DNA of 64,000 nt from a virus (IMGVR_UViG_3300028906_000002); one strand, 5' to 3'. Positions 10,271-64,000 are shown, counted from the first letter of the stretch. Numbers and translations are program-made. The notes: a model not told the origin generated them from the letters alone.

Positions 10271-10276
10271 GTTGAT

Positions 10277-12112: not shown

Positions 12113-12120
12113 AACGAAAC

Positions 12121-12145
12121 AACCCGCCGGGGCTTGGGCGGGTTG
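12121..12145 (+). terminator. GC hairpin after the methyltransferase gene (weak terminator candidate)
   Basis: AACCCGCC-ggggcttg-GGCGGGTT stem-loop. No U-tract. Confidence 0.2.
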
Positions 12146-12275
12146 CACGTAGCTTAAGTCCGATGGTTGCTGCCAGGCGATTTCGGACAGGAATTGATTT
12201 AGGGCGTTATCCGTCCCCCGTCAACCCTGTATCCCAACCCCGCCCAAGTGCCATCGGTTCCTATAGGGGAATCGA

Positions 12276-12629
12276 ATGAGCCGCTGGTTTCGAATTTATG
12301 ACGATTTGGTCCACGACAGGAAGGTGCAAGACCTTCCTGGGCCAACGTTCAAAGGTTGGATAAACATTCTCTGTCTTGCCTCGAAGCACGAGGGCGTTCT
12401 TCCTCCGCTCAGAGATATCGCCTTTGCCCTTCGGCTTCCTGAAGAAAAAGCTTCCAAACTAATCGACGCTCTCACCGACGCATGTCTGCTAGATAGATTG
12501 CAGGATGGCAATCTAGCGCCGCACAATTGGGATTCCCGTCAGCATAAAAGCGATAGCTCAACCGAGCGCGTAAAAGCATTCCGGGAACGGCAGAAGAATG
12601 TTTCATTGAAACTAATTGAAACATCATGA
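12276..12629 (+). CDS. putative replication-associated winged-helix protein
   Basis: 117 aa. The N-terminal pattern resembles phage replication organiser N-domains. The 3' end runs into the iteron array. Confidence 0.3.
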   Translation: MSRWFRIYDDLVHDRKVQDLPGPTFKGWINILCLASKHEGVLPPLRDIAFALRLPEEKASKLIDALTDACLLDRLQDGNLAPHNWDSRQHKSDSSTERVKAFRERQKNVSLKLIETS

Positions 12630-21989: not shown

Positions 21990-22166
21990 ATGCCGCGCCC
22001 GGCTGGATTGCCAAAGACCGGTGGTCGCCGTAAAGGCTCGGCAAATCGGCCAAAACCCGTGATTCTATCGCCAGATGAGGCAGCCCAAAGCCGTGCGATG
22101 ACGATCGTGACGCCAGCAGAAGTGGACTCCGAAGGCGGTTATGCTCGATGCGATGATGTTCTTTGA
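21990..22166 (+). CDS. hypothetical basic protein (58 aa)
   Basis: MPRPAGLPKTGGRRKGSANRPKP. Overlaps the next ORF by 26 nt in another frame. Confidence 0.3.
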   Translation: MPRPAGLPKTGGRRKGSANRPKPVILSPDEAAQSRAMTIVTPAEVDSEGGYARCDDVL

Positions 22167-22614
22167 TCGAATGGCGCGTCAGAGTGCTGAGCAGCTTGAT
22201 TACGGAGCGGCGACCAAGTACATGGTGTCTGCGGTGCAAGTGGCTGAAAAGGTTGCACCTTTCATCCATGCGCGGCTATTAGCGGTCGAATCACGCACCG
22301 AAGACAAAGCCGCACCGTTTGTCGTGCGTGCGCCTGCGGTGATGGCGGACAGCTCGGCCTGGCAGGCTGCGGTAGGGGCGGCAGTGATTGACATGGAGGC
22401 AGCGCAATCGCCCAGCGCGGGCCGCACAGAGGTTTCGGCACATCCGGCGCAGCAACATGCCCCTGAGCCTCAAAACGCACCAGCGGCCACGGCTGTTGCC
22501 CTGATGAACGACCCGAAGACGAACCGGATTACGGTCATGCCGCCTGGGCCGAGGGTGGTGCAGCCGTCTGGCACGGAGCAGTGGCTCGCTAGCATTCAGA
22601 AAAAGGTTGGCTGA
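22141..22614 (+). CDS. hypothetical protein
   Basis: 157-aa ORF. Confidence 0.4.
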   Translation: MLDAMMFFDRMARQSAEQLDYGAATKYMVSAVQVAEKVAPFIHARLLAVESRTEDKAAPFVVRAPAVMADSSAWQAAVGAAVIDMEAAQSPSAGRTEVSAHPAQQHAPEPQNAPAATAVALMNDPKTNRITVMPPGPRVVQPSGTEQWLASIQKKVG

Positions 22615-22817
22615 TGGACAAGCAGCAACGAGCGATTCGTTCATGGCATGAAGGTCTGTGCGTTTGCCATAAGTGCTTGAAAGAACGCGATGAAGTCCGC
22701 GCTTTCATGATAGTATGTCCCGAATGTGGTAACAAGCGCTGTCCGAAGGCATCAGATCACGATTTGTCCTGCACTGGCAGCAACAAACCTGGGCAGTATG
22801 GGAGCGTCTACGCCTAA
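22614..22817 (+). CDS. hypothetical zinc-ribbon protein
   Basis: CVCHKC...CPECGNKRC. Confidence 0.35.
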   Translation: MDKQQRAIRSWHEGLCVCHKCLKERDEVRAFMIVCPECGNKRCPKASDHDLSCTGSNKPGQYGSVYA

Positions 22818-22919
22818 GGATGATTGCTGGACTGAAAATAATTGTGCCAAGGCTCTTGTAATCCGGTCAAAATCCTGCCAATAAGCGGACACCGTAATTA
22901 TGCAGCAGGAGATACTCCA

Positions 22920-23831
<912 letters not shown>

Positions 23832-23832
23832 A

Positions 23833-24252
23833 ATGGTTCTGAAATGTCCCGATTGCGGCGTGAGCGTCATGAGTTTGATGACGCATGTCTGCGGTCGGGC
23901 CAACAGTTCGCCGAAATCGGAGCGCATTTCCGATAGCGGCGTTCAACCCCGAGCGAAAGGAGGCAATCACAAACCAACCAAACCTTCCGCCAAAGATGAA
24001 GCAGCAAGAGTGGCTGATATTGATAATGCGAAGAATGTGATCAATGGACCGACAATGGAGAGCGGTGTCGGCCCCGCCGGTCGTGGCCCCGAGATCGTAA
24101 ATGAAAGTATCGGGGCACCTAATTCAAGGCGCGGACGCCCCCGAATCGGCGAGACCCGCGATAAGCCATGGCTGAGTTGCGAGCCTCCGATGAGTGAACG
24201 AACATGGCGGCGCCGGCTATCCGAGCAGCGATCTAAAGAGGGTGGGAAATGA
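23833..24252 (+). CDS. hypothetical zinc-finger protein
   Basis: MVLKCPDCG...HVCG. A coupled 56-aa ORF follows (about 24249-24419). Confidence 0.4.
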   Translation: MVLKCPDCGVSVMSLMTHVCGRANSSPKSERISDSGVQPRAKGGNHKPTKPSAKDEAARVADIDNAKNVINGPTMESGVGPAGRGPEIVNESIGAPNSRRGRPRIGETRDKPWLSCEPPMSERTWRRRLSEQRSKEGGK

Positions 24253-35409: not shown

Positions 35410-35486
35410 ACCTCGGTAGCTCAGTGGGTAGAGCGTCCGTTTGTTTAACGGAAGGTCGATGGTTCGAGCCCATTCCCGAGGTGCCA
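35410..35486 (+). tRNA. tRNA-Asn (anticodon GTT)
   Basis: Manual cloverleaf: D-stem GCTC/GAGC, anticodon stem TCCGT/ACGGA with loop TTGTTTA, T-loop TTCGAGC, encoded CCA. One-nt irregularity at acceptor/T junction. Confidence 0.55.
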
Positions 35487-35571
35487 CGCTCTTGCTAATA
35501 CCGGCCCATTGATCTAGAAACCTCCCATGAACGCGAACCGCCATATTTCCCCCGATCGACCGCGCCCATCT

Positions 35572-35647
35572 CAGGGCGTGGGGAAAATGGTATCCCGCCG
35601 CATCTGGAGTGCGGAGATTGTCGGTTCGAGCCCGACCGCCCTGACCA
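35572..35647 (+). tRNA. tRNA-Pro (anticodon TGG)
   Basis: Acceptor CAGGGCG/CGCCCTG, D-stem GGGA/TCCC, anticodon stem CCGCA/TGCGG with loop TCTGGAG, T-arm GTCGG-TTCGAGC-CCGAC, encoded CCA. Confidence 0.6.
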
Positions 35648-35669
35648 TAACGACCACACGCTAGCTTTT

Positions 35670-35746
35670 GCTGGCGTAGCTCAGATGGGAGAGCATCCGT
35701 TTTGTACTCGGAAGGTCGGGAGTTCGAATCTACCCCGCCAGCCCCA
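35670..35746 (+). tRNA. tRNA-Thr-like (anticodon TGT)
   Basis: Perfect acceptor GCTGGCG/CGCCAGC and D-arm. Anticodon loop TTTGTAC. T-loop TTCGAAT. Encoded CCA. One extra nt in T-arm region. Confidence 0.5.
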
Positions 35747-39786: not shown

Positions 39787-41385
39787 ATGAATGCTCGTAC
39801 TGAAGCCGCCGCTTATCGTATTATATGGGAAGCATTGCCTGGCCCTCAGACGTGGCTTTTGTCGTGTCCGATATTTGAAGTATTTTTCGGAGGTGCTAGA
39901 GGTGGTGGAAAATCAGACGGAATGCTTGGAGATTTTGCATCGCATGCCGATGAATTCGGAGAGGATGCAATCGGTCTGATTCTCAGAAGAGAATTGACCC
40001 AACTTCGTGAACTTATTGAACGATCTAAACAAATTTATCGGCCGCTCGGCGCCGAATGGAATGTTCAAGAAAAGATGTGGCGTTTCCCGAATGGAGCGCG
40101 TCTCACATTTGCGTATATGGACAACGACGATGATGCTGACCGGTACCAAGGCAGCGCTTTTTCCAGAATATACATCGAGGAATTAGGCGGCTTTCCCGAT
40201 CCGAAACCCATTTTCAAACTCATGGCGTGTATTCGTTCACCCAACCCCAAAGTACGTTGCGGGTTCAGAGCGACTGGCAACCCAGGCGGTAGCGGTCACC
40301 AGTGGATTCGACAACGCTATATTTCTCCTGCTCCGGGCGGGATGAAAGTCATAAAATCGAAGTTTGTCAATCCGTTCACGAAAGAGGAATTTGAACAAGA
40401 AAGGGTATATATTCCTAGCAAGATAACGGACAATAAGTATAATAATACCCCTCAATATGTTGCCCGTCTGCAGATGGTTGGTAATGCCAATCTGGTTAAG
40501 GCATGGCTGGAGGGAAGTTGGGACATCATCGAAGGTGCCTATTTTGATGAATGGAACGAGCACCGCCATGTGATTCCGCAGTTTATAATCCCTGCACATT
40601 GGACGCGATACGTATCGATGGATTGGGGGAGCGCTAGACCCTCTGCGGTGCAATGGTGGGCCGTCGTTCCAGATAAATTCGATCCGATGCCAGATCATTT
40701 GCCCAGTACCTTTGACCCGCGATATGCTTATAAAAATAATCTGCCTCGGGGAGCGCTCGTCTGTTATCGAGAATGGTATACTTGTGCCACAGATGAAAAT
40801 GGCCAGAGTTTGCACAACAATACCGGTCAAAAGTTAACGGCTGAGCAATTCGCAAGCGGGGTGGCGGAACGAGAAAAGCGCGAACCGCGAGACGAGAATG
40901 GGCGTCCGAGGATGGCGTATCGAGTCGCTGATCCGTCAATATTCAAGGAGGATGGTGGCCCCTCTCTCGCTGAGCGGTTTGCGGCTGAACCTTATTTTCA
41001 TTTCTGGCGCCCAGCCGATAATGCTCGCGTCGCACGAAAAGGTGCTATGGGTGGCTGGGATTTGGTCCGCGCTCGGCTAATTGGGGAGGATGGCGAGCCA
41101 ATGATTTACTTTTTCCCCAATTGCGTTGATACTATTAGGACATTACCAGTGCTTCAGCATGACAAAGATAATATTGAGGATGTGGAAACCGACAATGTTG
41201 AAGACCATTGCGCAGATTCCACACGCTATAGTTGCGCAAGCCGCCCCTATTCCCGCCCGGAAGGCGATCCCGACAAAGGCCGCATCATGACGGTAGGCCC
41301 GGACAATCAGTTGCAGATCAAAGATGTCATGGGAGACTTCGAAGCACCGCGCGAGGCGAAGTTCATTCCGATTAAGAGGATTTAG
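39787..41385 (+). CDS. terL: terminase large subunit
   Basis: Walker A GGARGGGKSDG. Walker B-like YIEELGGF. C-terminal nuclease acidic residues (MDWGSARPS...EDHCADSTRY). 532 aa. Confidence 0.85.
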   Translation: MNARTEAAAYRIIWEALPGPQTWLLSCPIFEVFFGGARGGGKSDGMLGDFASHADEFGEDAIGLILRRELTQLRELIERSKQIYRPLGAEWNVQEKMWRFPNGARLTFAYMDNDDDADRYQGSAFSRIYIEELGGFPDPKPIFKLMACIRSPNPKVRCGFRATGNPGGSGHQWIRQRYISPAPGGMKVIKSKFVNPFTKEEFEQERVYIPSKITDNKYNNTPQYVARLQMVGNANLVKAWLEGSWDIIEGAYFDEWNEHRHVIPQFIIPAHWTRYVSMDWGSARPSAVQWWAVVPDKFDPMPDHLPSTFDPRYAYKNNLPRGALVCYREWYTCATDENGQSLHNNTGQKLTAEQFASGVAEREKREPRDENGRPRMAYRVADPSIFKEDGGPSLAERFAAEPYFHFWRPADNARVARKGAMGGWDLVRARLIGEDGEPMIYFFPNCVDTIRTLPVLQHDKDNIEDVETDNVEDHCADSTRYSCASRPYSRPEGDPDKGRIMTVGPDNQLQIKDVMGDFEAPREAKFIPIKRI

Positions 41386-41390: not shown

Positions 41391-44003
41391 ATGTCCATGG
41401 TTGAGGACGATCGTGATCCGACAGAAGACGATGAGCCGGAAGACACTGGCCGCGATCCGATCATGGATGATCCGCAAGAATCCCAGCGGATGGCGAAGTA
41501 TTGGAAGGGCGAGATACATGCGGTCGAGCAGGCCAATGAGAATTGGTACAAGCGCGGCGAGGATATCCTAAAGCGGTACCGGGATGAGCGGAAAGCGGCT
41601 CAGAATGAACAACGACGGTTGAACCTGCTTTGGTCGTCGGTGCAGATTTTGAAACCGGCGGTTTACGCCAAGGTTCCCCAAGCAGTTTGTGAGAGGAAAT
41701 TCAATGATCGTGATCCTGTCGGGCGTGTATCTGCTACTATCCTTGAGCGCGCCCTTCGGAACGAACTACAGGAAAACGGTTTTCATCCGTCTATGCGCCG
41801 CGCGCGGGATGACTACCTCCTGCCTGGACGCGGGCAACTCTGGGTAAGATATGAGCCAGAAATCGGTGAAGGATTATCCGTCCCGACCTCAGTTGAGCCG
41901 GACGTTGCTGACGCTAGCGGAGAGATTGAGCCGCCAGACGAGAGCGAGGAGACCGAGAAACTTGAGGAGACAGGTTCCCAAATCCTGAGCGAATCGGTTC
42001 CGGTGGATTACGTCCACTGGAAAGATTTTATGATGTTTCCGAGCACGGCTCGGACGTGGGAAGAGGTTCAAGCGGTCGGCAAACGGATATTCACGTCGAA
42101 AACCTACAATATTGAGAGATTCGGCGAGGAGATCGGCCGCAAGATATTGGCTGATCCGCAGATGTCGATGCGCGATCGTATCGCAGGGGATACAGCCGCT
42201 TATACATTGGACGATCATAATACCCGGAAGCGGGTAATTTACGAGATTTGGAACAAGGCGGACCGGAAAGCCTATTGGGTTTCGACGGGGTATGATTCGC
42301 TGTGTGACTGTCGTCAGGACCCGCTAGAACTTAGGAATTTTTTCCCGTGCCCGGAGCCGCTTTCGGCCACGATGACGAACGAATCGCTGATTCCGGTCCC
42401 CGATTTCACGGAATATCAGGATCAGGCCAACCAAATCGACGAATTGACGCAGCGAATCAGCCTTTTGGCGAAGGCGTGTAAGCTTGCGGGCACCTATGAT
42501 GCTTCGAATAAGGGTTTGCGTCGTCTTTTGGATGAAACGGTCGAGAATGAACTGATTCCGGTAGAGAATTGGGCGATGTCGGCGCAAAAAGGCGGTGTTG
42601 CGGGCTCGATTTCGTTCCTGCCGATTAAAGAAGTCGCGGAAGTGCTCCAAATATTGATGGGAGTCCGCGATAAGGTCATGCAGGACTTTGATCGGGTCAC
42701 TGGAATGCAGGCATTGGTCAGCCAAACCGATGATGCGCGGGAAACCCTTGGCGGACAGCGATTGAAAGCTAATGGAGGGCAGACCAGGATTGAGGACCGG
42801 CGGGAGGAAGTCGGTCGATTTGCTCGTGATGTTGTCCGATTGGTGGCTGAGGTTATCGCCAAGCATTTCCAGCCGGCCACACTGATAGAAATATCCGGGA
42901 TTTTGTATGAGGAAGGCATTGATCCTGCCTCAATGCAGCCAGTGGCAACGGATGCGCCACCGATCGCGCCTCCAATGGCTCCTCCTGCTACGGGAATGGC
43001 CCCTCCGGGCGGACAGATACAGTTACCGCCGCCACAGCCCGGCGCGCCGATGGCCCCGCCAATGGTGCCCGGGCAGCCTCCTGGCACGATGCCACCGCCC
43101 GGAACCGGAATGGTGCCGTTTCAGCCTCCGATGGGTGGCGCACCTCCCGGAATGCCGATGCCCGGCCAGATGCCATCCCCGCCTGGAATTGGCATGCCGA
43201 CGCCTCCACCTGGGGCATCGCCGCTGCTGTCACCAAAGGTGATGCAGGTATTGCAGCGCATCAAGAAGGCGATAGACCTCCTAAAGCAGGATATCCCTCG
43301 CGGCTACCGGATTGATATCGAAACCGACACGATGATTGCGGGCGATGTCCAGCAAGAGCGGCAGGACGCGACTGAATTTATCACGGCGGTGACGAAATTC
43401 CTTGAGACGGCACAGATGTTGGGCGGACAAAATCCTGCCATCGTTCCGTTACTGGCCAAAATGCTGCAATGGGGTGTGCGGAAATTCCGGACCGGTCGTG
43501 ATCTGGAATCGGCGATCGACGAATATGCAGAGAAGGCGGAAAAGACGGCTACGGCCAACGCAGCGAATATGGGGGGCCATCAGAATCCGGAACAGATTAA
43601 AGCGGCAGCCGATGCGGCGCGAGGCCAAGCCGAGATACAAAAGGCCAAGATCGATCAGCAATCCCAAGCCCAGAACGATCAGAGAGACCAAACTATTGCA
43701 GCGCAAAACCATCAATGGGATGTCGAAAAGCTCCAGATGGAAATGCAGATGCAGCGGGAACGGCATGCATTCGAGATGCAGAAACTGGCCAGCGAGAGGA
43801 TGGCGCATGCGGCGCAGACTGGTTTACCGGTCCCGTCGATGGAGACGGCGACGGCGCAAGGCCACCAAGACAACGTGATGCATTTGGCGAATGCGGCTAA
43901 TCTTATCCACAAGGCAGCGACTACGAAAAAGAGGATAGTTCGCGACCCCAGCGGCCGTGCTATCGGTATTGAGCCTATTCCGGAAATAGAGAATCCACAA
44001 TGA
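41391..44003 (+). CDS. portal protein with Pro-rich tract and C-terminal coiled-coil (P22-like)
   Basis: 870 aa directly after terL. About 90-aa Pro-rich low-complexity insert. Long C-terminal helical segment as in P22-type portal barrels. Confidence 0.6.
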   Translation: MSMVEDDRDPTEDDEPEDTGRDPIMDDPQESQRMAKYWKGEIHAVEQANENWYKRGEDILKRYRDERKAAQNEQRRLNLLWSSVQILKPAVYAKVPQAVCERKFNDRDPVGRVSATILERALRNELQENGFHPSMRRARDDYLLPGRGQLWVRYEPEIGEGLSVPTSVEPDVADASGEIEPPDESEETEKLEETGSQILSESVPVDYVHWKDFMMFPSTARTWEEVQAVGKRIFTSKTYNIERFGEEIGRKILADPQMSMRDRIAGDTAAYTLDDHNTRKRVIYEIWNKADRKAYWVSTGYDSLCDCRQDPLELRNFFPCPEPLSATMTNESLIPVPDFTEYQDQANQIDELTQRISLLAKACKLAGTYDASNKGLRRLLDETVENELIPVENWAMSAQKGGVAGSISFLPIKEVAEVLQILMGVRDKVMQDFDRVTGMQALVSQTDDARETLGGQRLKANGGQTRIEDRREEVGRFARDVVRLVAEVIAKHFQPATLIEISGILYEEGIDPASMQPVATDAPPIAPPMAPPATGMAPPGGQIQLPPPQPGAPMAPPMVPGQPPGTMPPPGTGMVPFQPPMGGAPPGMPMPGQMPSPPGIGMPTPPPGASPLLSPKVMQVLQRIKKAIDLLKQDIPRGYRIDIETDTMIAGDVQQERQDATEFITAVTKFLETAQMLGGQNPAIVPLLAKMLQWGVRKFRTGRDLESAIDEYAEKAEKTATANAANMGGHQNPEQIKAAADAARGQAEIQKAKIDQQSQAQNDQRDQTIAAQNHQWDVEKLQMEMQMQRERHAFEMQKLASERMAHAAQTGLPVPSMETATAQGHQDNVMHLANAANLIHKAATTKKRIVRDPSGRAIGIEPIPEIENPQ

Positions 44004-49194: not shown

Positions 49195-50454
49195 ATGATC
49201 AGGCATCTTTTCCTAAATTCGGCTGCAACATTTTCTCCCCCGGATGCCCCCGGTGCCGATTCTGGAGGTACCGATCAGGTTGCCGATCTCGGCGGATCGC
49301 CCGAACCCGCAGGAGGCGCGCCAGATGGTGGTGAAGCCCCTGCGGGCGGTGCGGAACCTGCGCCGGCACCGAAGGAAGATCACGCCAAACCCCGCGTCGA
49401 GACGGTTGGAGAGAGCGTTAGACGCGCCACGGCCGAGACGAAGGAAAAGGCTGAGGCCGCCGCGAAGGCCAAAACGACTAAGGCGGCTACCTCGGCTAAA
49501 GACAATCAGCAGACTGATGGCGCCACTGCTGGCGACAAGACTGCGAAACCAAGCTCCGAAGACGGAAGTACGGCGCAAACCGATCCTAGCCCAAAAGCAG
49601 AGGACGGACCGCCTACCTCATGGACTGCGGCAGAAAAACAGCTTTGGACACAACTTCCAGACGCGGCCAAAACTGCAGTCTTGAGGCATGACCAGAACAC
49701 CTCAAAGGGTGTAGCTGAACTACGAACACGATACCAAGAAATCGATACAGCAGTCGCTCCATACAAAGCGGTAATGACGCAAAATAACGTCACTCCCGGA
49801 CAGGCCATTTCGCAACTATTCAAATGGCACATGGAATTGGCTGGCCCGAACAAAATCGAGGCCTTCCGACAGCTCGCGAAATCATTTGGTGTTGACCCAG
49901 CAACCATTGCTGCTGCTCCCGCAACGACGGAGAAGCAAGCCGATGCCAACCCCGACAATTCGATTCCTGAAAACCTCCGACCGGTAATCACCAATCTGGA
50001 AACGCGCCTCAAGACGTTTGAGGAACGCGAATCTGCCGCAATGCAAAACGCGGCAAAACAGACGTGGCAGAATTGGTCGAAAGACAAGCCGCATGCCGAG
50101 ACGGTACGTGGTTTGATGGCTAACTTGATCAATTCGGACCTCGCCCTTATTCAGGCAGGACAGCCGCAGATCAGCAACACCATCAAAAACGGATCAATCG
50201 ACATGGATGCCGCATACGAAGCGGCTAAATACGCACATAAAGAAGTGCGAGAGGCTTTGATTCAAGAGGATCAGGCAAAGCGTGACAAGGAAGCCAGAGC
50301 GGCTGCCGAGAAGGCCAGGAAAGCGGGCGCAAGCCTGAAATCTGGCGCCCCGGCAGGCCCGATCAGCGCCAGTTCGAACGCAGCGCCAAGGAACGAAACC
50401 GTCGCGGAAAGCATCAAGCGTGCTCTCGCCGAAGTTCGGGGAACGCAGCACTAA
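49195..50454 (+). CDS. scaffolding protein
   Basis: 419 aa, highly charged, Ala/Glu/Lys-rich with coiled-coil segments. Immediately precedes the coat gene. Confidence 0.55.
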   Translation: MIRHLFLNSAATFSPPDAPGADSGGTDQVADLGGSPEPAGGAPDGGEAPAGGAEPAPAPKEDHAKPRVETVGESVRRATAETKEKAEAAAKAKTTKAATSAKDNQQTDGATAGDKTAKPSSEDGSTAQTDPSPKAEDGPPTSWTAAEKQLWTQLPDAAKTAVLRHDQNTSKGVAELRTRYQEIDTAVAPYKAVMTQNNVTPGQAISQLFKWHMELAGPNKIEAFRQLAKSFGVDPATIAAAPATTEKQADANPDNSIPENLRPVITNLETRLKTFEERESAAMQNAAKQTWQNWSKDKPHAETVRGLMANLINSDLALIQAGQPQISNTIKNGSIDMDAAYEAAKYAHKEVREALIQEDQAKRDKEARAAAEKARKAGASLKSGAPAGPISASSNAAPRNETVAESIKRALAEVRGTQH

Positions 50455-50474
50455 CCCCACAGGGGAAATGTGCC

Positions 50475-50687
50475 ATGGCCTCTCCCGGCCTTTCCGAAAT
50501 TGTTACCACTACGCTGCGTAACCGCACTGGTTCGCTGCAGGATAATGTAAGCAGGAACAATGCCCTGCTTCATCGTCTCAACAAAAAGGGCAATATCAAA
50601 ACGTTTGACGGCGGTCGAACTATTGTCCAGGAGTTAGACTACAACAATAACTCCACCTTCGTCTGGTACTCCGGGTTAAGTGTTTGA
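50475..50687 (+). CDS. major capsid (coat) protein, exon 1 (gene interrupted)
   Basis: AGGGGAAA RBS. Capsid-like N-terminus MASPGLSEIVTTTLRNRTG...FVWYSG. Frame closes after 70 aa and resumes downstream. Confidence 0.5.
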   Translation: MASPGLSEIVTTTLRNRTGSLQDNVSRNNALLHRLNKKGNIKTFDGGRTIVQELDYNNNSTFVWYSGLSV

Positions 50688-51295
50688 GCCCCGGTTAATG
50701 CCTTAAGGGCGTAATAAAGAGGACGATCTACGTGTTTCATCTTCCATCGATTGCAGGGACCACAAAGCGTCTGGGCGTTTTCCCGGATATTAATGCCGCT
50801 GCACATCACTGGCAGGATGTGGTCAAGAACAAGTTCTTCGGTCGATTTGCACCATTTGCATTGTGGTTCGATCCATTCGGCTTTCTGTTCCTTCGTAAAG
50901 ATGAAGTGATGCCTCGGGGCGTTTTCTCTAAAATTATCCCAAGGTTTATTCTCTCCATTTCTACAGTATGCGATCATGTCAGCGCGATTGGTTCGCCAGC
51001 GCTCACGAAGGGCCGCCGACATTTTGGCGCGCGCTTCCTTAGTTTGCTTGAAGACACCTTTCTTCGGGCCTGTGCCTTTGGGCGGATTAAGTCTTCTGCC
51101 TTCGATAATACGTTGGCGAGATTCTGGAGAATGAGTTTTTCCGTAGAAAGGGTTATTTTTTCCTACGTTGTAGGCCGCTTTACAACCGACGTTGCAAAAC
51201 TTTTTTGTATCCGTCCGAATATTATGGATGGCTCGGTAAATAAGCGTTCCGCAATTCAGGCAAGGAAAACTCTCGCCAGTCTTTTTACGTCCCAT
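50639..51295 (-). CDS. HNH homing endonuclease with NUMOD3 motifs (in/adjacent to intron 1, opposite strand)
   Basis: C-terminal HNH motif CKWCKSTEELVLDHILPVMCSGINIRENAQTLCGPCNRWK. NUMOD3-like NPFYGKTHSPESRQRI and KQTKEARAKMSAALRERW. Confidence 0.7.
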   Translation of the reverse strand: MGRKKTGESFPCLNCGTLIYRAIHNIRTDTKKFCNVGCKAAYNVGKNNPFYGKTHSPESRQRIIEGRRLNPPKGTGPKKGVFKQTKEARAKMSAALRERWRTNRADMIAYCRNGENKPWDNFRENAPRHHFIFTKEQKAEWIEPQCKWCKSTEELVLDHILPVMCSGINIRENAQTLCGPCNRWKMKHVDRPLYYALKALTGAQTLNPEYQTKVELLL

Positions 51296-51539
51296 GGATT
51301 AACCTGCAAACTGGGTGAAAACGGTGAAAAACTTGTTACGGGGTAACTCGTACTAAGTCAATACCGTGCCAAGCTATCGATGTAAGGCGAAAGCCCGAGG
51401 GCGATAGAAGGTGTAACGACTAGATGCCGCGCGAAAGCAGTAATGCATCCACGAGTGCCCAGGCCGAAAGGCATGAGATAGTCTGGACTATGCCGTGAGG
51501 TATAGATGCAGGGGATAAAGAGCCTCTGCGGTAACATAG
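50688..51539 (+). mobile_element. group I intron 1 in coat gene (approximate boundaries)
   Basis: Core copy A at 51371-51536: helix CTATCG/CGATAG, GNRA hairpin GGC-GAAA-GCC, P7-like GACTA..TAGTC, tail GGGGATAAAGAGCCTCTGCGGTAACA-TAG. Confidence 0.5.
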
Positions 51540-51650
51540 TAGCGATCAAACGCTTAATATTTCGCCAAGCCAAACGTTCACGGCAGCGGAATTTCCAATA
51601 AGGCAGGCCGCGCTCGCGATTTCGATCTCGGGCTTGGAAGAAATTCAGAA
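51540..51650 (+). CDS. coat protein exon 2 (candidate, about 37 codons)
   Basis: Open frame ...SDQTLNISPSQTFTAAEFPIRQAALAISISGLEEIQNSG sits between the two intron cores, immediately after the conserved 3' tail of intron 1. Confidence 0.3.
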
Positions 51651-52615
51651 CAGTGGTTGGTAACTTGGCCACTTAATCGGGTGAAACGGGGGACGGTGAG
51701 AATCCCAATCCCGTAGGAAGCTATCAACGTAAGACGAAAGTCCCAGGGTGATAGAACCTCTAACGCATAGGCAGTGACGAAAGAATAATCTGCCCACGAG
51801 CGCCCGACAGGAAAGAAAGACGAAATGACTAAAGGCCACGCAAAAGACCTATCCGGAATGAGGTTCGGAAATATGGTCGTCGAGTATCGGAATGGTTCCG
51901 ATGCTAACTGCATGGCTCTTTGGATGTGCAAATGTGATTGTGGAAATTCAGCTTCAATTCGTGGCGCGTTTTTGCGTAAAGGTCAGATTTTCTGCTCTAA
52001 GCAGTGCAGCCTTTATACAAAGCCGATGCGGATTGATTTAACAGGCCAGAAATTCGGACGGTTGACCGCAGTGGAATATCTGAAGTCGACAAAATCCGGA
52101 AAGTCTGTGTGGCTCTTCTTGTGTGATTGTGGGGAGACGACGATTTGTCCCCATGACAATGTGACGAACGGACATACCATAAGCTGCGGGTGCCATGGCA
52201 TTCGTAGTCGTGTCCGGCACGGTCAAAGCAAGACGAGGGCGTATCAGAACGCCGCACATAGAAAATGGGTTGATGAAAACCCGGGTAAGTTTCTTGCGAA
52301 CGTCAAGAGACGGACTCCTGCCCTGAAGCTTAGAATTCCGCAATGGCTCACAGATGAGTATTGGTCGCAGATCGATGCCCATTACTCGGAAGCGAGGAGA
52401 CTGACGAAGGAAACCGGTATCATTCACCACGTTGACCACATCTATCCCCTTCGTGGGAAGACGTGCAGCGGATTGCATGTACCGTGGAATCTTCAAGTCA
52501 TCACTCGTACAGCGAACTTGCACAAGGCTAATCGTTTTCCTGAAGATGTATGCTGGACTAACGCGAATTAGATGAAGCGTTAGAAGTAGGGGATAAAAAG
52601 CCTCTACGGTAACAG
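51651..52615 (+). mobile_element. group I intron 2 in coat gene with embedded HNH ORF (approximate boundaries)
   Basis: Core copy B at 51717-51824 shows compensatory changes versus copy A (CTATCA/TGATAG, GAC-GAAA-GTC). P7-like CTAACG..CGTTAG straddles the HEG. Tail GGGGATAAAAAGCCTCTACGGTAACAG at 52588-52615. Confidence 0.5.
51825..52571 (+). CDS. HNH homing endonuclease (intron-encoded), two N-terminal Zn-ribbon modules
   Basis: HHVDHIYPLRGKTCSGLHVPWNLQVITRTANLHKAN HNH motif. Tandem G.RFG.L..VEY...W.C.CDCG..SCGC modules. Confidence 0.75.
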   Translation: MTKGHAKDLSGMRFGNMVVEYRNGSDANCMALWMCKCDCGNSASIRGAFLRKGQIFCSKQCSLYTKPMRIDLTGQKFGRLTAVEYLKSTKSGKSVWLFLCDCGETTICPHDNVTNGHTISCGCHGIRSRVRHGQSKTRAYQNAAHRKWVDENPGKFLANVKRRTPALKLRIPQWLTDEYWSQIDAHYSEARRLTKETGIIHHVDHIYPLRGKTCSGLHVPWNLQVITRTANLHKANRFPEDVCWTNAN

Positions 52616-53329
52616 GCCTCGGAAGAAGCCATTATCAACCTGCTTGAAGGCCGCGTCAAAAACGGTGAGCGCACTTTTTTGAACGGACTCAGCCAGGGGG
52701 CGTATGGGGACGGCACGGTTGCCAACTCGATTGGCGGCTTGCAGTTGCTTGTGGCGGCGTCGCCTAACACGGGTATCGTCGGCGGTATTGATCGGTCACA
52801 GTATTCGTTCTGGCGGAACATCACGTTCTCGGCGGCAACGAATGGTGGCGCACCGACATCGGCTGCGAATATCCAGGACTACATGGATCAGATGTACGTA
52901 CAGCTTGTGCGTGGCAATGACCATCCGGACCTGATCGTCGCCGACAACAACATGTATCGGTACTACCTATCGTCTCTACAGGCCATCCAGCGCTTGCAGG
53001 GAGACACCGACCTGGCGAACCTCGGATTTGAGACGCTGAAGTATCTCAACTGCGATGTCGTGCTCGACGGTGGCTACCAGGGCCAGTCAACCGATCCGTT
53101 GCCGTTCCAGACTAGCTCGGGAACGTCGGCAGTTGGTGGTTCACCAACCAACACGATGTTTTTTCTCAATTCGAACTATATTCACTGGCGCCCATACGCC
53201 GGTCGCAACATGGTCCCGCTTGATCCCGATCGGTTCAGCGTGAACCAAGACGCGATGGTCAGACTCGTGGGCTGGGGCGGGAATATGAGCCTTAGCTGCG
53301 CCTTCCTTCAAGGTGTTATTACGACCTAG
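52616..53329 (+). CDS. major capsid (coat) protein, exon 3
   Basis: The frame opens exactly after the intron tail ...GGTAACAG. 238 codons of capsid-like sequence (NYIHWRPYAGRNMVPL...). Listed ORF 52679-53329 is its TTG-started part. Confidence 0.55.
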   Translation, partial: ASEEAIINLLEGRVKNGERTFLNGLSQGAYGDGTVANSIGGLQLLVAASPNTGIVGGIDRSQYSFWRNITFSAATNGGAPTSAANIQDYMDQMYVQLVRGNDHPDLIVADNNMYRYYLSSLQAIQRLQGDTDLANLGFETLKYLNCDVVLDGGYQGQSTDPLPFQTSSGTSAVGGSPTNTMFFLNSNYIHWRPYAGRNMVPLDPDRFSVNQDAMVRLVGWGGNMSLSCAFLQGVITT

Positions 53330-53384: not shown

Positions 53385-54011
53385 ATGACTGTAGATCGAA
53401 CTGGACAACGTTATGGCCGTCTCACGGTTATCGAAAGAACTACCAAGTCTAAGCCTGTCAATACGGTCTCAAATCAAAGGAGAACATATTGGCTTTGCCG
53501 CTGCGATTGTGGAAGCGTTATCGAGGCATCGGGAGAAAATCTAAGGTGTGGCAATACATCATCATGTGGCTGCTCTCGTATCAAACATGGCATGTCAAAA
53601 ACAAAAGTCCATCACGTATGGCGGGCTATGCTTTATAGATGCGATAATCCTAATGATCATGCTTATCACAATTATGGTGGCCGTGGCATCAAGGTTTGCG
53701 AGGAATGGCGTAAGTTTGAGGTGTTCTATAGTGAAATGGGTGATCCACCTCGTGGAGGAACAATAGAGCGTAAAGACACGAGTGGTCCTTACGCCAAGTG
53801 GAATTGCAAATGGGCTTCTATGAAAGAGCAACAGAACAACAAGCGGAATAACGTGGTGCTTGAAGCATTCGGAAAATCTCAGACCATGACACAATGGGCT
53901 GAAGAATATAGGATGCCGCTGAATACACTACGTAACCGCTTGTTTCGGGCTAAGATGCCTGTGGAAGATGCTCTGACGGCGAGAAGCATGTTAGGAAAAA
54001 ACAGGAGCTAA
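53385..54011 (+). CDS. free-standing HNH-family homing-endonuclease-like protein
   Basis: GQRYGRLTVIE...YWLCRCDCGS...SCGCSR Zn-ribbon. YHNYGGRGIKVCEEW...GTIERKD..GPYAKWNCKWASMKEQQNN core typical of phage HNH-family proteins. Confidence 0.6.
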   Translation: MTVDRTGQRYGRLTVIERTTKSKPVNTVSNQRRTYWLCRCDCGSVIEASGENLRCGNTSSCGCSRIKHGMSKTKVHHVWRAMLYRCDNPNDHAYHNYGGRGIKVCEEWRKFEVFYSEMGDPPRGGTIERKDTSGPYAKWNCKWASMKEQQNNKRNNVVLEAFGKSQTMTQWAEEYRMPLNTLRNRLFRAKMPVEDALTARSMLGKNRS

Positions 54012-61734: not shown

Positions 61735-62077
61735 TCCAAACTCAGGTGGCTGGTCGATGGGGCCTCTTGGCGGTTCGTCGCAGCCGACCATGGCACCAGC
61801 CGCGCCGGGCCAATTGACACCGGCCCAAGTCGCGCAAATTCAGGCTACTACTGGAGCGATGGGACAACCCACGACTTTAGCCTCGCCGCAACAGCAAACG
61901 ATGCTCGGTGGATTATTCGGCTCACAGAACAATATGGGTCAGAATCTTGGTAGCATGGGTAACACTTTATGGGGCAGCACCCCGGCCTATGGTGGCGGAA
62001 ACATGTTGAGTGGCGATGCGTTCGGCGGAAGTGCCGCTGCTCCGCTTGCTGGTCTTACGTCGGCTGATTACGGATGA
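61724..62077 (+). CDS. hypothetical Gly/Met/Gln-rich protein
   Basis: ATGA-coupled. Confidence 0.35.
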   Translation: MPYDPNSGGWSMGPLGGSSQPTMAPAAPGQLTPAQVAQIQATTGAMGQPTTLASPQQQTMLGGLFGSQNNMGQNLGSMGNTLWGSTPAYGGGNMLSGDAFGGSAAAPLAGLTSADYG

Positions 62078-62083
62078 TGAAAA

Positions 62084-64000
62084 ATGGCGCTTAATCCAGC
62101 GACGACAACTGGAACTGGCGGATGGGGTTTGGCCCCGGTCGGCACAGCATCGCAATCGACGATGCCGCTTGCGCCAACTCAACAGTCAATATTGACGCCG
62201 GAACAGATCGCGCAGTTGCGTCAGCAATCTGTGGCGATGCAGACACCGCCGACGCAAAACATTCAGAGTTGGACGCAGGGTGTTGCCGAGCTTGTCCGGG
62301 CCATGCAGGGCAATCGCGAGGCTGATTTCGCACGGCAACAGGAACTGCAGGGTCGCCAGCAAGGCGCAGATGCGATCGGCAAGATTTATGCGCCATACCT
62401 ATCCCAGGGCGGAAGTTCCCCTTCTGCTGCTGGAGCGGCGCCGGCTGGAACACTGGGGAGTGGCCCGGCCGGCGCTACTGCTTCGGCGGATAGTCCTACG
62501 CCGAGCGATGCGAACACGCCAGCGGCACTAGCGGCGACCGCAGATGCATCGGCTCCTCGCGGTATCCGGAATAACAATCCGCTGAATATTGAGGATGGCC
62601 AATTTGCACGCGGTCAACCCGGATATGCTGGTTCGGATGGACGATTTGCGAAGTTTGAGACACCGGAACATGGCGTTTCGGCGGCGGATAAACTGCTGAA
62701 CAGTTATCAAGCAAATCAGGGCCTAAATACGATCAATGGGATTGTCGGTCGGTGGGCTCCCTCAACTGATGGCAACAATACCAAGGCCTATGCGGCACAT
62801 GTCGCGGCTCAGATGGGGATCGGCCCCAACGACCCGATTCCGCCAGCAATGCGTCCGCAACTGATTGCGGCAATGGCTGCGCATGAAAATGGCATACCGT
62901 TGCCTCCTGCAGCCACGAAGGTACCGCAGGCGGCTCCGACTGGCCTTTTGGCGCCTATCCAGCCTCCCGCAACGCCTCCAGCGGCTGTGCCTCCTACCGC
63001 CGCTGCGCCAAGTCCGGCACCGACACAACTTGCCTATGCTGGAACTGGTCCAATTCCTCCCGGTATGGTCCCGAATCCTGTCACGCAAGCCTCGCAAGGC
63101 CCCGGAACACCTCCTGGTGTGGCCCCGATGGTCAATGCCATCGCTGGGCGACCCATGCCGCCTGCCGCACCGACAACTCCCCAGCCAATTGCGCCTTCCG
63201 CTGCTCCGATCGCTCCACCGGATTTTGTGAGACAGGCCGCCGCGATGGAAGCGGCTAAAGCATCCGCCCCACAGGCACCGTTACCGTCTCCCGGTGCAGC
63301 CATTCCGCCAGCGGACTTTGCGGCGCAAGTGGCGGCTATGGAGGCTGCTAAAGGTGCTCCGAATCAGCCTCCCATACCTGCATCAGGTGCGCCACCGATT
63401 GCGCCGGCTGATTTTGCCAAAATGGCAGCGACGATGGAAGCGATGAAGGCTGGAGCGCCAGCCTCCCCTCCAAGTGGATCGGCTGCGGTTGTGCCCCCGA
63501 CGCAAACGGCCGCTATTCCGCCAGCTCCGCCGATTGCGGCAGGAACGCCTCCCGCTGCACCACTACCGCCCGCGTTCCTACCTACTGGATCAGCAATTCC
63601 GGGTGCCGTAGGTCCGACCTCGGTCAATGGTGCTCCGCTAGCCATTCCGCCACCATTTGGGGCAACATCGGTAAACGGCGCTCCGCTACCGCAGCGCGGA
63701 ACCCCTCCGACCAATCCAGCGCTGGTTTCGTTCATTGCCGGACAAAATCTTCCGCCGAATGCCGCGCCAACGGCTGGCACCGGTTCGCCAATTCCTGGTG
63801 CCCCTCCCCAAGTGGCTCAGAATGGACCGCCAGCCGGCGCCGCTCCTAGCCCCGCTGGTGGCCCTGCGGGATTGCCTTCTCCGCTTACTTCTCCGACTGG
63901 ACAGGTGACACAGGCCCAACTGACCCAAGTTCTCGCGAATCCGTGGGTTTCGGAAAGCGCCAAGGCGTCCATGTTGCAGATGATTCAGCAACGTGGACAG
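62084..64000 (+). CDS. large Pro/Ala-rich virion protein with conserved RGIRNNNPLNI domain (3' partial)
   Basis: No stop to window end (639 codons), so absent from the ORF track. N-terminal domain RGIRNNNPLNIEDGQFARGQ...GRFAKFETPEHGVSAADKLLNSY...GIVGRWAP. Then tandem about 25-aa repeats P(I)APxDFxxxAAxMEAxK. Confidence 0.5.
   Translation, partial: MALNPATTTGTGGWGLAPVGTASQSTMPLAPTQQSILTPEQIAQLRQQSVAMQTPPTQNIQSWTQGVAELVRAMQGNREADFARQQELQGRQQGADAIGKIYAPYLSQGGSSPSAAGAAPAGTLGSGPAGATASADSPTPSDANTPAALAATADASAPRGIRNNNPLNIEDGQFARGQPGYAGSDGRFAKFETPEHGVSAADKLLNSYQANQGLNTINGIVGRWAPSTDGNNTKAYAAHVAAQMGIGPNDPIPPAMRPQLIAAMAAHENGIPLPPAATKVPQAAPTGLLAPIQPPATPPAAVPPTAAAPSPAPTQLAYAGTGPIPPGMVPNPVTQASQGPGTPPGVAPMVNAIAGRPMPPAAPTTPQPIAPSAAPIAPPDFVRQAAAMEAAKASAPQAPLPSPGAAIPPADFAAQVAAMEAAKGAPNQPPIPASGAPPIAPADFAKMAATMEAMKAGAPASPPSGSAAVVPPTQTAAIPPAPPIAAGTPPAAPLPPAFLPTGSAIPGAVGPTSVNGAPLAIPPPFGATSVNGAPLPQRGTPPTNPALVSFIAGQNLPPNAAPTAGTGSPIPGAPPQVAQNGPPAGAAPSPAGGPAGLPSPLTSPTGQVTQAQLTQVLANPWVSESAKASMLQMIQQRGQ

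What the first reader, a model, noticed from the sequence alone, without database searches (positions are those of the whole stretch)
50475..53329. Major capsid gene split into three exons by two group I introns, each carrying an HNH homing endonuclease
A capsid-like ORF starts with a good RBS at 50475 but terminates after 70 codons. Capsid-like coding sequence resumes at 52616 and runs to 53329. The intervening about 1.9 kb contains (i) an HNH+NUMOD3 ORF on the opposite strand, (ii) an HNH ORF on the same strand, and (iii) two copies of an about 110-170-nt RNA core, at 51371-51536 and 51717-51824. The two copies differ by compensatory substitutions that preserve helices. CTATCG..CGATAG becomes CTATCA..TGATAG. 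GGC-GAAA-GCC becomes GAC-GAAA-GTC, a GNRA tetraloop hairpin. Covariation of this kind is the signature of a functional RNA. Both copies have a P7-like GACTA/TAGTC or CTAACG/CGTTAG pairing. Both end in the shared tail GGGGATAAA(A)AGCCTCT(G/A)CGGTAACA followed by G. The coat reading frame reopens immediately after each tail. The first reopening is a 37-codon candidate middle exon at 51540-51650. The second is the long exon at 52616.
Basis: partly seen in the sequence, partly recalled or inferred. Interest (0 to 1): 0.85.

Follow-up and report, generated by a model that had tools for sequence, protein, structure and literature searches.

The report
Capsid gene split by two introns
A phage's major capsid gene is cut into three pieces by two related self-splicing (group I) introns, each carrying its own DNA-cutting "homing" enzyme; this is a known kind of selfish element, but it belongs to an intron lineage that sits almost only in capsid genes.

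Summary

- **Gene structure.** Exon 1 is 50475-50676, intron A 50677-51544, exon 2 51545-51657, intron B 51658-52621, and exon 3 52622-53329.
- **Spliced product.** Joining the exons gives a 340-aa protein. It aligns without gaps, at 95% identity, to an uninterrupted 340-aa metagenomic capsid protein.
- **Intron hallmarks.** Both upstream exons end in U. Both introns end in G. Both introns have the group I core, including the P3/P7 pseudoknot.
- **Covariation.** Across 29 family members, 92.5% of cells are paired, against 35-38% in shifted controls. The two window copies alone differ by 20 compensated pairs.
- **Covariance models.** Rfam's group I model scores intron A below threshold (35.5 bits; cut-off 50). 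ORF-less homologues pass it, including one at intron B's site. A model built only from other contigs hits exactly these two introns in the 64 kb.
- **Homing endonuclease genes.** Intron A carries a NUMOD3+HNH gene on the opposite strand, between P1 and P3. Intron B carries an HNH gene in the P8 loop. A third, free-standing HNH gene follows the capsid gene.
- **Verdict.** This is a new member of a known kind.
- **Extra finding.** About 85-90% of this intron lineage's copies lie in major capsid genes, of four capsid families in all. They occupy at least nine sites in this capsid family.

The parts
50475..50676 (+). Capsid exon 1 (codons 1-67 plus the first base of Tyr68); it ends in U50676
   Evidence: ORF listing. 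Junction fixed by alignment to intron-less homologues. Unspliced reading stops at TGA 50685-50687.
50677..51544 (+). Group I intron A, 868 nt. P10 strand 50682-50687. IGS GCCCCGG 50688-50694. Candidate P2 50693-50699 / 51298-51304 enclosing the antisense ORF. Core P3-P9.1 51311-51529. Terminal G at 51544.
   Evidence: Rfam RF00028 35.5 bits, E 8.6e-7. Independent model R1 180.2 bits at 51304-51547. Covariation. Helix coordinates.
50639..51295 (-). Intron A homing endonuclease gene on the opposite strand (218 aa; NUMOD3 at residues 45-64, HNH at 146-193). Its last ~20 codons read antisense through P2, P1 and 38 nt of exon 1.
   Evidence: Pfam NUMOD3, HNH_5 and HNH above cut-offs. PHROG HNH families. 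Most homologues are ~202 aa and cover 90% of the query, so the tail is not conserved.
51545..51657 (+). Capsid exon 2, 113 nt (last two bases of Tyr68 through Gly105); it ends in U51657
   Evidence: Homologue alignment. 23 nucleotide differences from the intron-less allele L172 and no amino-acid change.
51658..52621 (+). Group I intron B, 964 nt. IGS GCCACT 51668-51673 pairs with exon AGTGGT 51652-51657. No P2. Core 5' part runs to 51807. P8 51808-51814 / 52536-52542 encloses the ORF. P7' 52549-52553. P9 52558-52583. P9.1 52586-52607. Terminal G at 52621.
   Evidence: Model R1 116.6 bits at 51670-51872 and 27.8 bits at 52510-52625. Covariation on the ORF-deleted sequence. Helix coordinates. 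An ORF-less intron at the same site in L025 passes the Rfam gathering score.
51825..52571 (+). Intron B homing endonuclease gene (248 aa) in the P8 loop. Two N-terminal CxC-containing repeats and a C-terminal HNH motif (HHVDHIYPL...GLHVPWNLQ...N). Its stop codon lies in the P9 loop.
   Evidence: PHROG 374 HNH endonuclease E 1.8e-31 and PHROG 1035 endonuclease VII E 7.5e-11. No Pfam hit. 44% identical to the intron ORF of relative L170.
52622..53329 (+). Capsid exon 3 (Glu106 to Thr340, plus the stop codon)
   Evidence: The spliced protein matches PHROG 9953 'major head protein' at E 2.1e-105.
53385..54011 (+). Free-standing HNH endonuclease gene immediately downstream of the capsid gene. It shares the N-terminal repeat module with the intron B ORF.
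   Evidence: PHROG 374 E 2.1e-61 and PHROG 3377 E 3.5e-47. 40% identity over 80 aa to the intron B ORF.

Best explanation
The late-transcribed major capsid gene of this tailed phage is interrupted by two homologous but diverged group I introns. It lies in a head module downstream of the large terminase, the portal and a 419-aa ORF of unknown function.

**Splicing (inferred mechanism).**
- In the pre-mRNA each intron folds into the group I core.
- The internal guide sequence pairs with the last bases of the upstream exon, placing a U.G wobble at the splice site.
- An external guanosine attacks after U50676 (intron A) or U51657 (intron B).
- The freed exon end then attacks after the terminal G (51544 or 52621).
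- The product is a continuous 1023-nt reading frame for a 340-aa capsid protein.
- Unspliced RNA is not read through. In-frame stops follow each 5' splice site within 2-3 codons.

**Mobility (inferred mechanism).**
- Each intron carries an HNH-type homing endonuclease gene in a peripheral position. In A it lies on the opposite strand between P1 and P3. In B it lies on the same strand in the P8 loop, with its 3' end overlapping P8', P7' and P9.
- During co-infection the enzymes presumably nick or cut intron-less capsid alleles near the insertion sites.
- Repair from the intron-bearing genome then copies in the intron and flanking capsid sequence.

**Status of each step.** Shown here: the gene structure, the RNA fold and the endonuclease families. 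Inferred: splicing, cleavage specificity, and how the antisense gene is transcribed.
For: 1. **Collinearity.** The spliced product aligns gap-free to the uninterrupted P0001 at 95% identity. The first 153 residues are identical although the DNA is only 80% identical, so all three exons are under purifying selection.
2. **Splice-site rules.** U precedes both 5' splice sites and G ends both introns. The same holds for related introns in L008, L025, L039, L130, L170 and L171.
3. **P1 and P10.**
   - Intron B: AGUGGU/GCCACU with U.G.
   - Intron A: G.U plus three G-C pairs, then a C.C mismatch, flanked by a 6-bp P10 (GUUUGA/UCAAAC) (and direct reading).
4. **Core fold.** 60 pairs including the P3/P7 pseudoknot are 92.5% paired, against 35-38% when the 3' partners are slid. 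51 of 60 pairs have double changes. The covariation score is 0.544, against 0.084 or less in the slid controls. Intron A versus intron B gives 20 doubly compensated pairs.
5. **Covariance models.**
   - RF00028 scores intron A at 35.5 bits, E 8.6e-7.
   - ORF-less homologues score 50.1-75 bits, at or above the gathering score.
   - The independent model R1 scores 180.2, 116.6 and 27.8 bits and hits nowhere else in the window.
6. **Endonuclease families.**
7. **Recent mobility.**
   - L170, 96% identical through exon 1, intron A and exon 2, keeps intron A.
   - L170 has site B empty. It has a related HNH intron after Gly127 instead.
   - L172 has neither intron.
8. **Precedent.** Capsid-gene introns with an oppositely oriented HNH, and two HNH introns in one phage gene, have been shown to splice (PMC3706429, PMC7344957).
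Against: - No RNA or protein data exist for this phage, so splicing is inferred.
- The window's own copies do not reach Rfam's gathering score. A scores 35.5 against a cut-off of 50, and B is not reported at all. The ORF insertions plausibly explain this but do not prove it.
- P1 of intron A is short and contains a C.C mismatch. A competing register gives five G-C pairs but puts U.C at the splice site.
- The 7-bp P2 across the antisense ORF could be a chance match. My rough estimate is about 0.1 for two 40-nt windows.
- No sigma-70-like promoter was found for the antisense endonuclease gene.
- The intron B ORF has no Pfam match.
Confidence: 0.93

Rival explanations
1. The insertions are homing endonuclease genes that broke the capsid gene without being spliced out. 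The locus would then be a pseudogene in a defective phage, or a 'gene in pieces' whose fragments are translated separately and assemble, as reported for NrdA split by mobE in Aeromonas phage Aeh1.
For: Splicing was not observed. The window's copies are below Rfam's gathering score. A non-splicing HNH insertion is discussed for phage CB7 and Aeh1 (PMC7344957).
Against: - Exon 2 is 37 codons with a split codon at its 5' end and has no start codon or ribosome-binding site of its own.
- All exons are under strong purifying selection: 205 nucleotide differences but only 17 amino-acid differences from L172, and none in the first 153 residues.
- The intervening RNA has a covariation-supported ribozyme fold with canonical U and G boundaries.
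Confidence: 0.03
2. Both elements are genuine group I introns, but at least one no longer self-splices efficiently. Intron A is the likelier candidate, given its weak P1. It would then depend on a host or phage factor, or the contig would represent a non-viable variant.
For: P1 of intron A has only four consecutive pairs next to a C.C mismatch. Its P2 carries a 600-nt antisense insert (and direct reading).
Against: - The same P1 (GGGU/GCCC followed by the mismatch) is kept at this site in L025, L170 and L171.
- Intron A with its endonuclease gene is 96-98% conserved in an independent contig from another sample.
- The capsid protein is essential, so a splicing defect would be lethal.
Confidence: 0.04

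Closest known systems
Mycobacteriophage LittleE capsid-gene intron (Cluster J; PMC3706429)
   Same: A major capsid gene is interrupted by a probable group I intron. That intron carries an HNH endonuclease gene transcribed in the opposite direction to the capsid gene. The upstream exon ends in U and the intron ends in G. Free-standing HNH genes lie nearby.
   Different: LittleE has one 819-bp intron, and its splicing was shown by RT-PCR and N-terminal protein sequencing. Here there are two homologous introns, in a different capsid family and a different phage lineage, with no experimental data.
Staphylococcus phage Twort orf142, with three group I introns (Landthaler and Shub 1999; title seen in the reference list of PMC6669764; details from my own knowledge)
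   Same: Several self-splicing group I introns lie in one phage gene. Exon skipping between related introns is possible.
   Different: I did not check the Twort host gene's function. The Twort introns were characterised biochemically and structurally. I did not compare their sequences with this lineage.
Pectobacterium phage CB7 DNA polymerase gene with two HNH-containing introns (PMC7344957)
   Same: Two HNH-bearing introns split one essential phage gene into three ORFs. Splicing was confirmed by RT-PCR. Many free-standing HNH genes sit in the same genome.
   Different: The host gene is a replication gene, not the capsid gene. No RNA structure analysis was given there.
Bacillus phage SPO1/SP82 DNA polymerase introns encoding I-HmuI/I-HmuII (my own knowledge, not checked here)
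   Same: Phage group I introns carrying HNH endonucleases that nick DNA near the insertion site. This is the working model for how the two enzymes here would act.
   Different: Different gene, host and intron sequence. Cleavage chemistry was not tested here.
Cyanophage psbA intron with the adjacent free-standing endonuclease F-CphI (Zeng, Bonocora and Shub 2009; Bonocora and Shub 2009; titles seen in the reference list of PMC10448857; details from my own knowledge)
   Same: A free-standing homing endonuclease gene sits next to an intron-bearing gene. The same arrangement applies to ORF 53385-54011 directly after the capsid gene.
   Different: Nothing here shows what the downstream HNH enzyme cuts.

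Membership tests
Group I intron (Rfam RF00028) | The upstream exon ends in U, paired with G of an internal guide sequence (P1) | tested here: met
   Homologue alignment puts the junctions after U50676 and U51657. Intron B has AGUGGU/GCCACU with U.G. Intron A has G.U plus three G-C pairs, then a C.C mismatch (and direct reading).
Group I intron (Rfam RF00028) | The intron ends in G (omega G) | tested here: met
   G51544 and G52621 directly precede the exon sequence required by the homologues. The same holds in L008, L025, L039, L170 and L171.
Group I intron (Rfam RF00028) | Conserved core of P3-P8 and P4-P6 domains with the P3/P7 pseudoknot | tested here: met
   60 pairs are 92.5% paired, against 35-38% when slid. 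51 pairs show double changes. No shuffle of 500 reached the observed values. 20 pairs are compensated between the two window copies.
Group I intron (Rfam RF00028) | Score at or above Rfam's gathering threshold (50 bits) | tested here: inconclusive
   Window intron A scores 35.5 bits (E 8.6e-7). Intron B is not reported; its core is split by a 747-nt ORF. Homologues pass: L025 at intron B's site 50.1, L039 72.9, L007 75. The tool cannot take ORF-deleted sequences.
Group I intron (Rfam RF00028) | Guanosine-dependent self-splicing | not testable with these tools
   Needs an in vitro splicing assay or RNA-seq.
Subgroup IA introns of phages (T4 td, Twort type) | Extra P7.1/P7.2 helices between P7 and P3' (definition recalled from memory) | tested here: inconclusive
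   There is one covariation-supported hairpin between P7 and P3' (A 51423-51449, B 51770-51794, helix 10), with a conserved GACGAAAGAAUAAU loop. No second helix was found. Subgroup not assigned.
HNH (His-Me finger) homing endonuclease | HNH catalytic domain recognised by a curated profile | tested here: met
   Intron A ORF: Pfam HNH_5 29.4 bits (cut-off 27.5), HNH 21.7 (cut-off 21.4), NUMOD3 43.9 (cut-off 20.4).
HNH (His-Me finger) homing endonuclease | The same feature, for the intron B ORF | tested here: inconclusive
   No Pfam hit even at E 5. PHROG 374 'HNH endonuclease' E 1.8e-31 and PHROG 1035 'endonuclease VII' E 7.5e-11. The motif HHVDH...N...N is visible in the sequence.
HNH (His-Me finger) homing endonuclease | Site-specific cleavage of the intron-less allele | not testable with these tools
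   Needs purified protein and an intron-less target, for example the L172 sequence.
Major capsid protein (PHROG 9953 / Pfam SU10_MCP) | Full-length match to a capsid family profile | tested here: met
   PHROG 9953 'major head protein' E 2.1e-105 over residues 2-340. tblastn matches annotated capsid genes of Bradyrhizobium phage ppBjS10J-1 (52%), Mx8 and Mx9. Pfam SU10_MCP is below its cut-off (17.6 against 24.1).

The most novel reading that the evidence does not exclude
The two window introns belong to one group I intron lineage that specialises in major capsid genes.

**What supports it.**
- I defined the lineage by the core motif GACGAAAGAAUAAY-N5-CACGARCGYCC.
- In IMG/VR, 106 of 116 copies lie next to capsid coding sequence. 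In metagenomes the figure is 131 of 156.
- The flanking capsids belong to four PHROG capsid families in IMG/VR (9953, 1328, 1357, 334) and to three of them in the metagenome sample (9953, 1328, 1357). I did not test whether these families are related to each other.
- In the window's own capsid family the lineage occupies at least nine sites, with up to four introns per gene.
- Introns at the same site are not each other's closest relatives. Endonuclease genes differ between copies and sit in P8 (same strand) or upstream of P3 (opposite strand).

**What it would imply.** The ribozyme spreads between sites and capsid families partly independently of any one endonuclease. Possible routes are reverse splicing guided by a 4-6-nt guide sequence, or repeated endonuclease swapping. 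Capsid genes would also have to be a preferred niche for some reason, for example late high expression or interference competition between co-infecting phages.
Probability: 0.4. Interest if true: 0.7.

Novelty: new member of a known kind. Interest (0 to 1): 0.45.

Why it matters
**For annotation.** Gene callers will report this essential capsid gene as three fragments plus two "McrA-like" nucleases. The corrected exon coordinates give the true 340-aa protein.

**For biology.**
- The locus is a clean natural example of two related mobile introns within 1 kb of one essential late gene.
- One of them has an antisense endonuclease gene, and a third endonuclease gene sits next door.
- A 96%-identical relative has the second intron at a different site. 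An intron-less allele also exists. Together these give ready-made donor and recipient pairs for homing and competition experiments.

**The wider observation.** This intron lineage sits almost only in capsid genes and has colonised many sites. If it holds up, it bears on how group I introns choose and reach new sites in phage genomes.

Tried and rejected
- **Rfam at gathering threshold over the whole window.** Only three tRNAs were found and no intron. A relaxed search found intron A only.
It has two stops in that frame. I replaced it with 51545-51657.
- **Provisional junctions.** My first choices (GGG TT|C and GGT|GCC) gave F-D and A-S insertions that are absent from all homologues, so I rejected them.
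- **Megablast of the locus against cultured phages.** No match.
- **blastn of the intron cores against cultured phages.** Only short core matches appeared, to Aeromonas T4-like DNA-polymerase introns, Bacillus SP-15 and a Staphylococcus phage. No cultured carrier of this lineage was found.
- **PDB sequence search with the intron B ORF.** Only noise (cytochrome c, E above 0.1).
- **Pfam.** Nothing for the intron B ORF, the downstream HNH gene, the L025 intron-1 ORF or the L170 ORF. My by-eye GIY-YIG guess for the L025 ORF is therefore unsupported.
- **Promoter and terminator scan.** Nothing accounts for expression of the antisense endonuclease gene.
- **Exact-pattern scan of metagenome contigs for the exon 2/intron B junction.** No hits.
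- **Recent-duplicate hypothesis for the two introns.** Rejected. They are 60% identical overall. They are 90% identical only in P9.1 plus the tail, 76% in the P6 domain, and 33-51% elsewhere.
- **Orthology of same-site introns.** Not supported. Window A versus L025 at the same site is 49% identical; window B versus L025 at the same site is 54%.
- **Minimum-free-energy folding of intron A alone.** It recovers P4-P5, P6b, P8, P9 and P9.1 (z = -3.2) but, as expected, not the pseudoknot.
Full report
**What is in the sequence**

- The window around 50-54 kb lies in a head-morphogenesis module on the plus strand. PHROG searches identify the large terminase at 39787-41385 and the portal at 41391-44003.
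- An ORF with a Shine-Dalgarno-like AGGGGA starts at 50475 and stops after 70 codons.
- Capsid-like coding sequence resumes in two further stretches and ends at 53329.
- Between them lie a minus-strand ORF (50639-51295) and a plus-strand ORF (51825-52571).

**The capsid gene and its exact junctions**

- A provisional exon concatenate found more than 7000 homologues. The top 120 are almost all uninterrupted proteins of 340-345 aa, and the best is 94% identical.
- Among cultured phages the nearest annotated capsid proteins are those of:
  - Bradyrhizobium phage ppBjS10J-1 (52%);
  - Stenotrophomonas phage BUCT555;
  - Myxococcus phages Mx8 and Mx9.
- The alignment shows that homologues read WYSGY-QTLNIS and IQNSG-EEAIINLL. 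Only one set of junctions reproduces this:
  - exon 1 50475-50676 (…GGG T);
  - exon 2 51545-51657 (AT CAA … AGT GGT);
  - exon 3 52622-53329 (GAA GAA …).
- These junctions put a U before each 5' splice site and a G at the end of each intron.
- The spliced 340-aa protein aligns to the uninterrupted P0001 with 95% identity and no gap. The first 153 residues, spanning both junctions, are identical.
- P0001 is encoded by a contiguous 1023-nt gene in L172. At the DNA level the two genes are only 80% identical, with 205 differences. Exon 2 has 23 of these, and none changes an amino acid.
- All three exons are therefore under purifying selection as one protein.
- The spliced protein matches PHROG 9953 'major head protein' at E 2.1e-105. 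Pfam SU10_MCP is below its cut-off.

**The intervening sequences are group I introns**

- *Rfam.* At gathering threshold Rfam reports only three tRNAs. A relaxed search of 50400-52800 reports RF00028 at 51211-51505 with 35.5 bits and E 8.6e-7. That is below the 50-bit cut-off.
- *Relatives' capsid genes* carry related introns, several of them without ORFs:
  - L025 has three, including ORF-less ones at exactly the two window sites.
  - L008 has one after Ser26.
  - L039 has one after the first base of Tyr65.
- *Rfam on homologues.* The gathering score is passed by L039 (72.9 bits), by L025 at intron B's site (50.1 bits), and by more distant copies sharing the 3' tail motif (52.6-75 bits).
- *Covariation.* I aligned 27 non-redundant ORF-less family members with intron A and an ORF-deleted intron B. 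I then wrote a structure with P3, P4, P5, P5a, P6, P6a, P6b, P7, P7.1, P8, P9 and P9.1.
  - 92.5% of cells pair, against 35-38% when the 3' partners are slid by 1-3 columns.
  - 51 of 60 pairs have changes on both sides.
  - The covariation score is 0.544, against 0.084 or less in the slid controls.
  - No shuffle of 500 reaches the observed values.
- *The two window copies compared.* Of 55 comparable pairs, 26 are identical, 2 changed on one side, 20 changed on both sides and still pair, and 7 are broken. All seven fall in P4, P5 and P9, where I suspect the alignment is off register.
- *Independent model.* A covariance model built from the 27 outside sequences alone, with an RNAalifold structure, hits the window at only three places:
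  - 51304-51547 (180.2 bits);
  - 51670-51872 (116.6 bits);
  - 52510-52625 (27.8 bits).

**Anatomy (coordinates)**

*Intron A, 868 nt.*
- The exon strand UCCGGGU (50670-50676) faces the guide GCCCCGG (50688-50694). This gives G.U at the splice site, three G-C pairs, a C.C mismatch and two more pairs.
- The same GGGU/GCCC plus mismatch is seen at this site in L025, L170 and L171.
- Directly 5' of the guide, GUUUGA (50682-50687) can pair with exon 2 UCAAAC (51546-51551) as P10.
- A 7-bp GGUUAAU/AUUAACC pairing (50693-50699 / 51298-51304) would form a P2 that encloses the antisense ORF. This pairing is suggestive only.
- The core runs from P3 (51311) to P9.1 (51529). GGUAACA and eight more bases follow, ending at G51544.

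*Intron B, 964 nt.*
- P1 is AGUGGU/GCCACU, and there is no P2.
- The core runs to P3' at 51801-51807.
- P8 (CAGGAAA 51808-51814 / UUUCCUG 52536-52542) encloses the ORF.
- P7 is GCAUA/UAUGC, P9 is CUAACGC/GCGUUAG, and P9.1 is GUAGGGG/CCUCUAC.
- The intron ends at G52621.

*Features common to both.*
- A covarying hairpin lies between P7 and P3', with the loop GACGAAAGAAUAAU (altered in intron A). It resembles the P7.1 element of subgroup IA introns. That comparison is from memory, and I did not assign a subgroup.
- In-frame stops follow each 5' splice site: TGA at 50685-50687 and TAA at 51661-51663.

**The endonuclease genes**

- *Intron A ORF.* It is on the opposite strand and has NUMOD3 and HNH domains above Pfam cut-offs.
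  - Its closest relatives are 98% (P0121) and 80% identical.
  - Most homologues are about 202 aa and cover 90% of the query.
  - So the C-terminal ~20 residues are not conserved. These are encoded antisense to P2, P1 and 38 nt of exon 1.
- *Intron B ORF.* It has no Pfam hit but matches PHROG HNH and endonuclease VII families. It has an evident HHVDH…N…N motif.
  - Its candidate ribosome-binding site, AGGAAAG, is the 5' strand of P8.
  - Its stop codon lies in the P9 loop.
- *Free-standing ORF 53385-54011.* It lies directly after the capsid gene and is another PHROG 374 HNH endonuclease (E 2.1e-61). It shares the N-terminal repeat with the intron B ORF.
- *The antisense arrangement recurs.* HNH ORFs on the opposite strand, just upstream of P3, are found in:
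  - L130 and L161, at the same capsid site in capsids only 28-30% identical;
  - L171, at the same site in a capsid 66-73% identical;
  - L131 and L089.
- No sigma-70-type promoter for the antisense gene was detected.

**Evidence of mobility**

- L170 comes from a different sample and is 96% identical to the window through exon 1, intron A and exon 2.
- It has site B empty.
- It has a related intron after Gly127 instead. That intron has P1 AACGGU/GCCGUU and a 249-aa HNH ORF 44% identical to the window's.
- It also has the tail of a further intron before Arg27.
- L172 lacks both introns.

**The wider family**

- The core motif GACGAAAGAATAAY-N5-CACGARCGYCC hits the following collections:
  - 97 IMG/VR stretches;
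  - at least 119 metagenome stretches;
  - only four bacterial genome contigs, one of them a 42.5-kb Sinorhizobium sp. CB7 contig.
- In IMG/VR, 106 of 116 cores lie within 1.5 kb, on the same strand, of sequence matching one of four PHROG capsid families: 9953, 1328, 1357 and 334.
- In the metagenome sample the figure is 131 of 156, from three of those families (9953, 1328, 1357). Sixteen of the other 25 have too little flanking sequence.
- One exception is a ribonucleotide reductase gene (L120, by eye).
- In the window's capsid family the introns cluster at about nine positions: near residues 26, 58, 65, 68, 105, 118, 128, 160-165 and 305. There are up to four per gene (L100, L116).
- Introns at the same site are not especially similar: 49% and 54% identity for the window introns against L025.
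- The two window introns are mosaics. They are 90% identical in P9.1 plus the tail, 76% in the P6 domain, and 33-51% elsewhere.
- The seed motif came from capsid introns, so this bias needs an unbiased survey.

**Comparison with what is known**

Group I introns with HNH genes in phage genes are well established. Specific precedents are:
- A capsid-gene intron with an oppositely oriented HNH gene in mycobacteriophage LittleE. Its splicing was shown experimentally. The same paper cites a capsid intron in Tuc2009 (PMC3706429).
- Two spliced HNH introns in the CB7 DNA polymerase gene (PMC7344957).
- Three introns in one Twort gene. I saw only the title in a reference list.

My literature searches found no description of this lineage or of its capsid-gene bias. 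The library is limited, so this is weak evidence of novelty.

**Verdict**

The finding is real and correctly interpreted. It is a new member of a known kind. The mechanism (self-splicing plus endonuclease-driven homing) is inferred from strong comparative evidence, not observed.

Noticed in passing
window 53385-54011 (+): A free-standing HNH endonuclease gene sits directly after the capsid stop codon (PHROG 374, E 2.1e-61). Its N-terminus is 40% identical to the repeat module of the intron B endonuclease. It may target the capsid gene or a neighbour, as free-standing enzymes next to intron-bearing genes do in cyanophages. Its target is unknown.
   Followed up: partly
L170 1200-3460 (ENA sample ERZ27237485), compared with window 50475-53329: This relative is 96% identical through exon 1, intron A and exon 2. 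It has the window's intron B site empty. Instead it has a related HNH intron after Gly127, plus the 3' tail of another intron before Arg27. This shows recent intron turnover between near-identical phages.
   Followed up: partly
Loci L073-L169 (IMG/VR) and L177-L295 (metagenomes): I defined the intron lineage by its core motif. It lies next to major-capsid coding sequence in 106 of 116 copies (IMG/VR, four PHROG capsid families) and 131 of 156 copies (metagenomes, three of them). It occupies about nine sites in the window's capsid family, with up to four introns per gene. The seed motif came from capsid introns, so the bias needs an unbiased check.
   Followed up: partly
L039 4183-4445 and L163, compared with window 51652-51673: Introns inserted after the first base of Tyr65 use the same guide GCCACU and the same exon sequence AGUGGU as window intron B, which sits 40 codons downstream. 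The L039 intron is 72% identical to the L025 intron at the window-B site. This could reflect spread to a second site that matches the guide sequence, as expected for reverse splicing. I did not test this further.
   Followed up: partly
L120 about 10146-12297 (reverse-complement coordinates of the locus): One copy of the same intron lineage appears to interrupt a ribonucleotide reductase-like gene rather than a capsid gene. It carries an ORF with the same CDCG repeat module as the window's intron B endonuclease. I judged this by eye from the translations only.
   Followed up: no
window 35411-35743 (+): A cluster of three tRNA genes (Rfam tRNA, 48.8-54.4 bits).
   Followed up: no
window 22001-24000 and 62001-64000: Two 2-kb stretches have G+C of about 0.62, against 0.50-0.57 in the rest of the window. 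The cause is unknown.
   Followed up: no
L176 (Sinorhizobium sp. CB7, NZ_JAULLL010000031.1, 42.5-kb contig) 2649-3666: This is the only hit from a named bacterial isolate assembly. An intron of this lineage sits in a distant homologue of the window's capsid gene (28% identity) near residue 70. It hints at rhizobial hosts for part of the lineage.
   Followed up: no
L025 3434-3988 (+): The intron after Ser26 in L025, L009 and L010 carries a 184-aa ORF in the P8 loop. It has no Pfam match and is unrelated to the window's HNH genes. So the same ribozyme lineage hosts different ORF families.
   Followed up: partly
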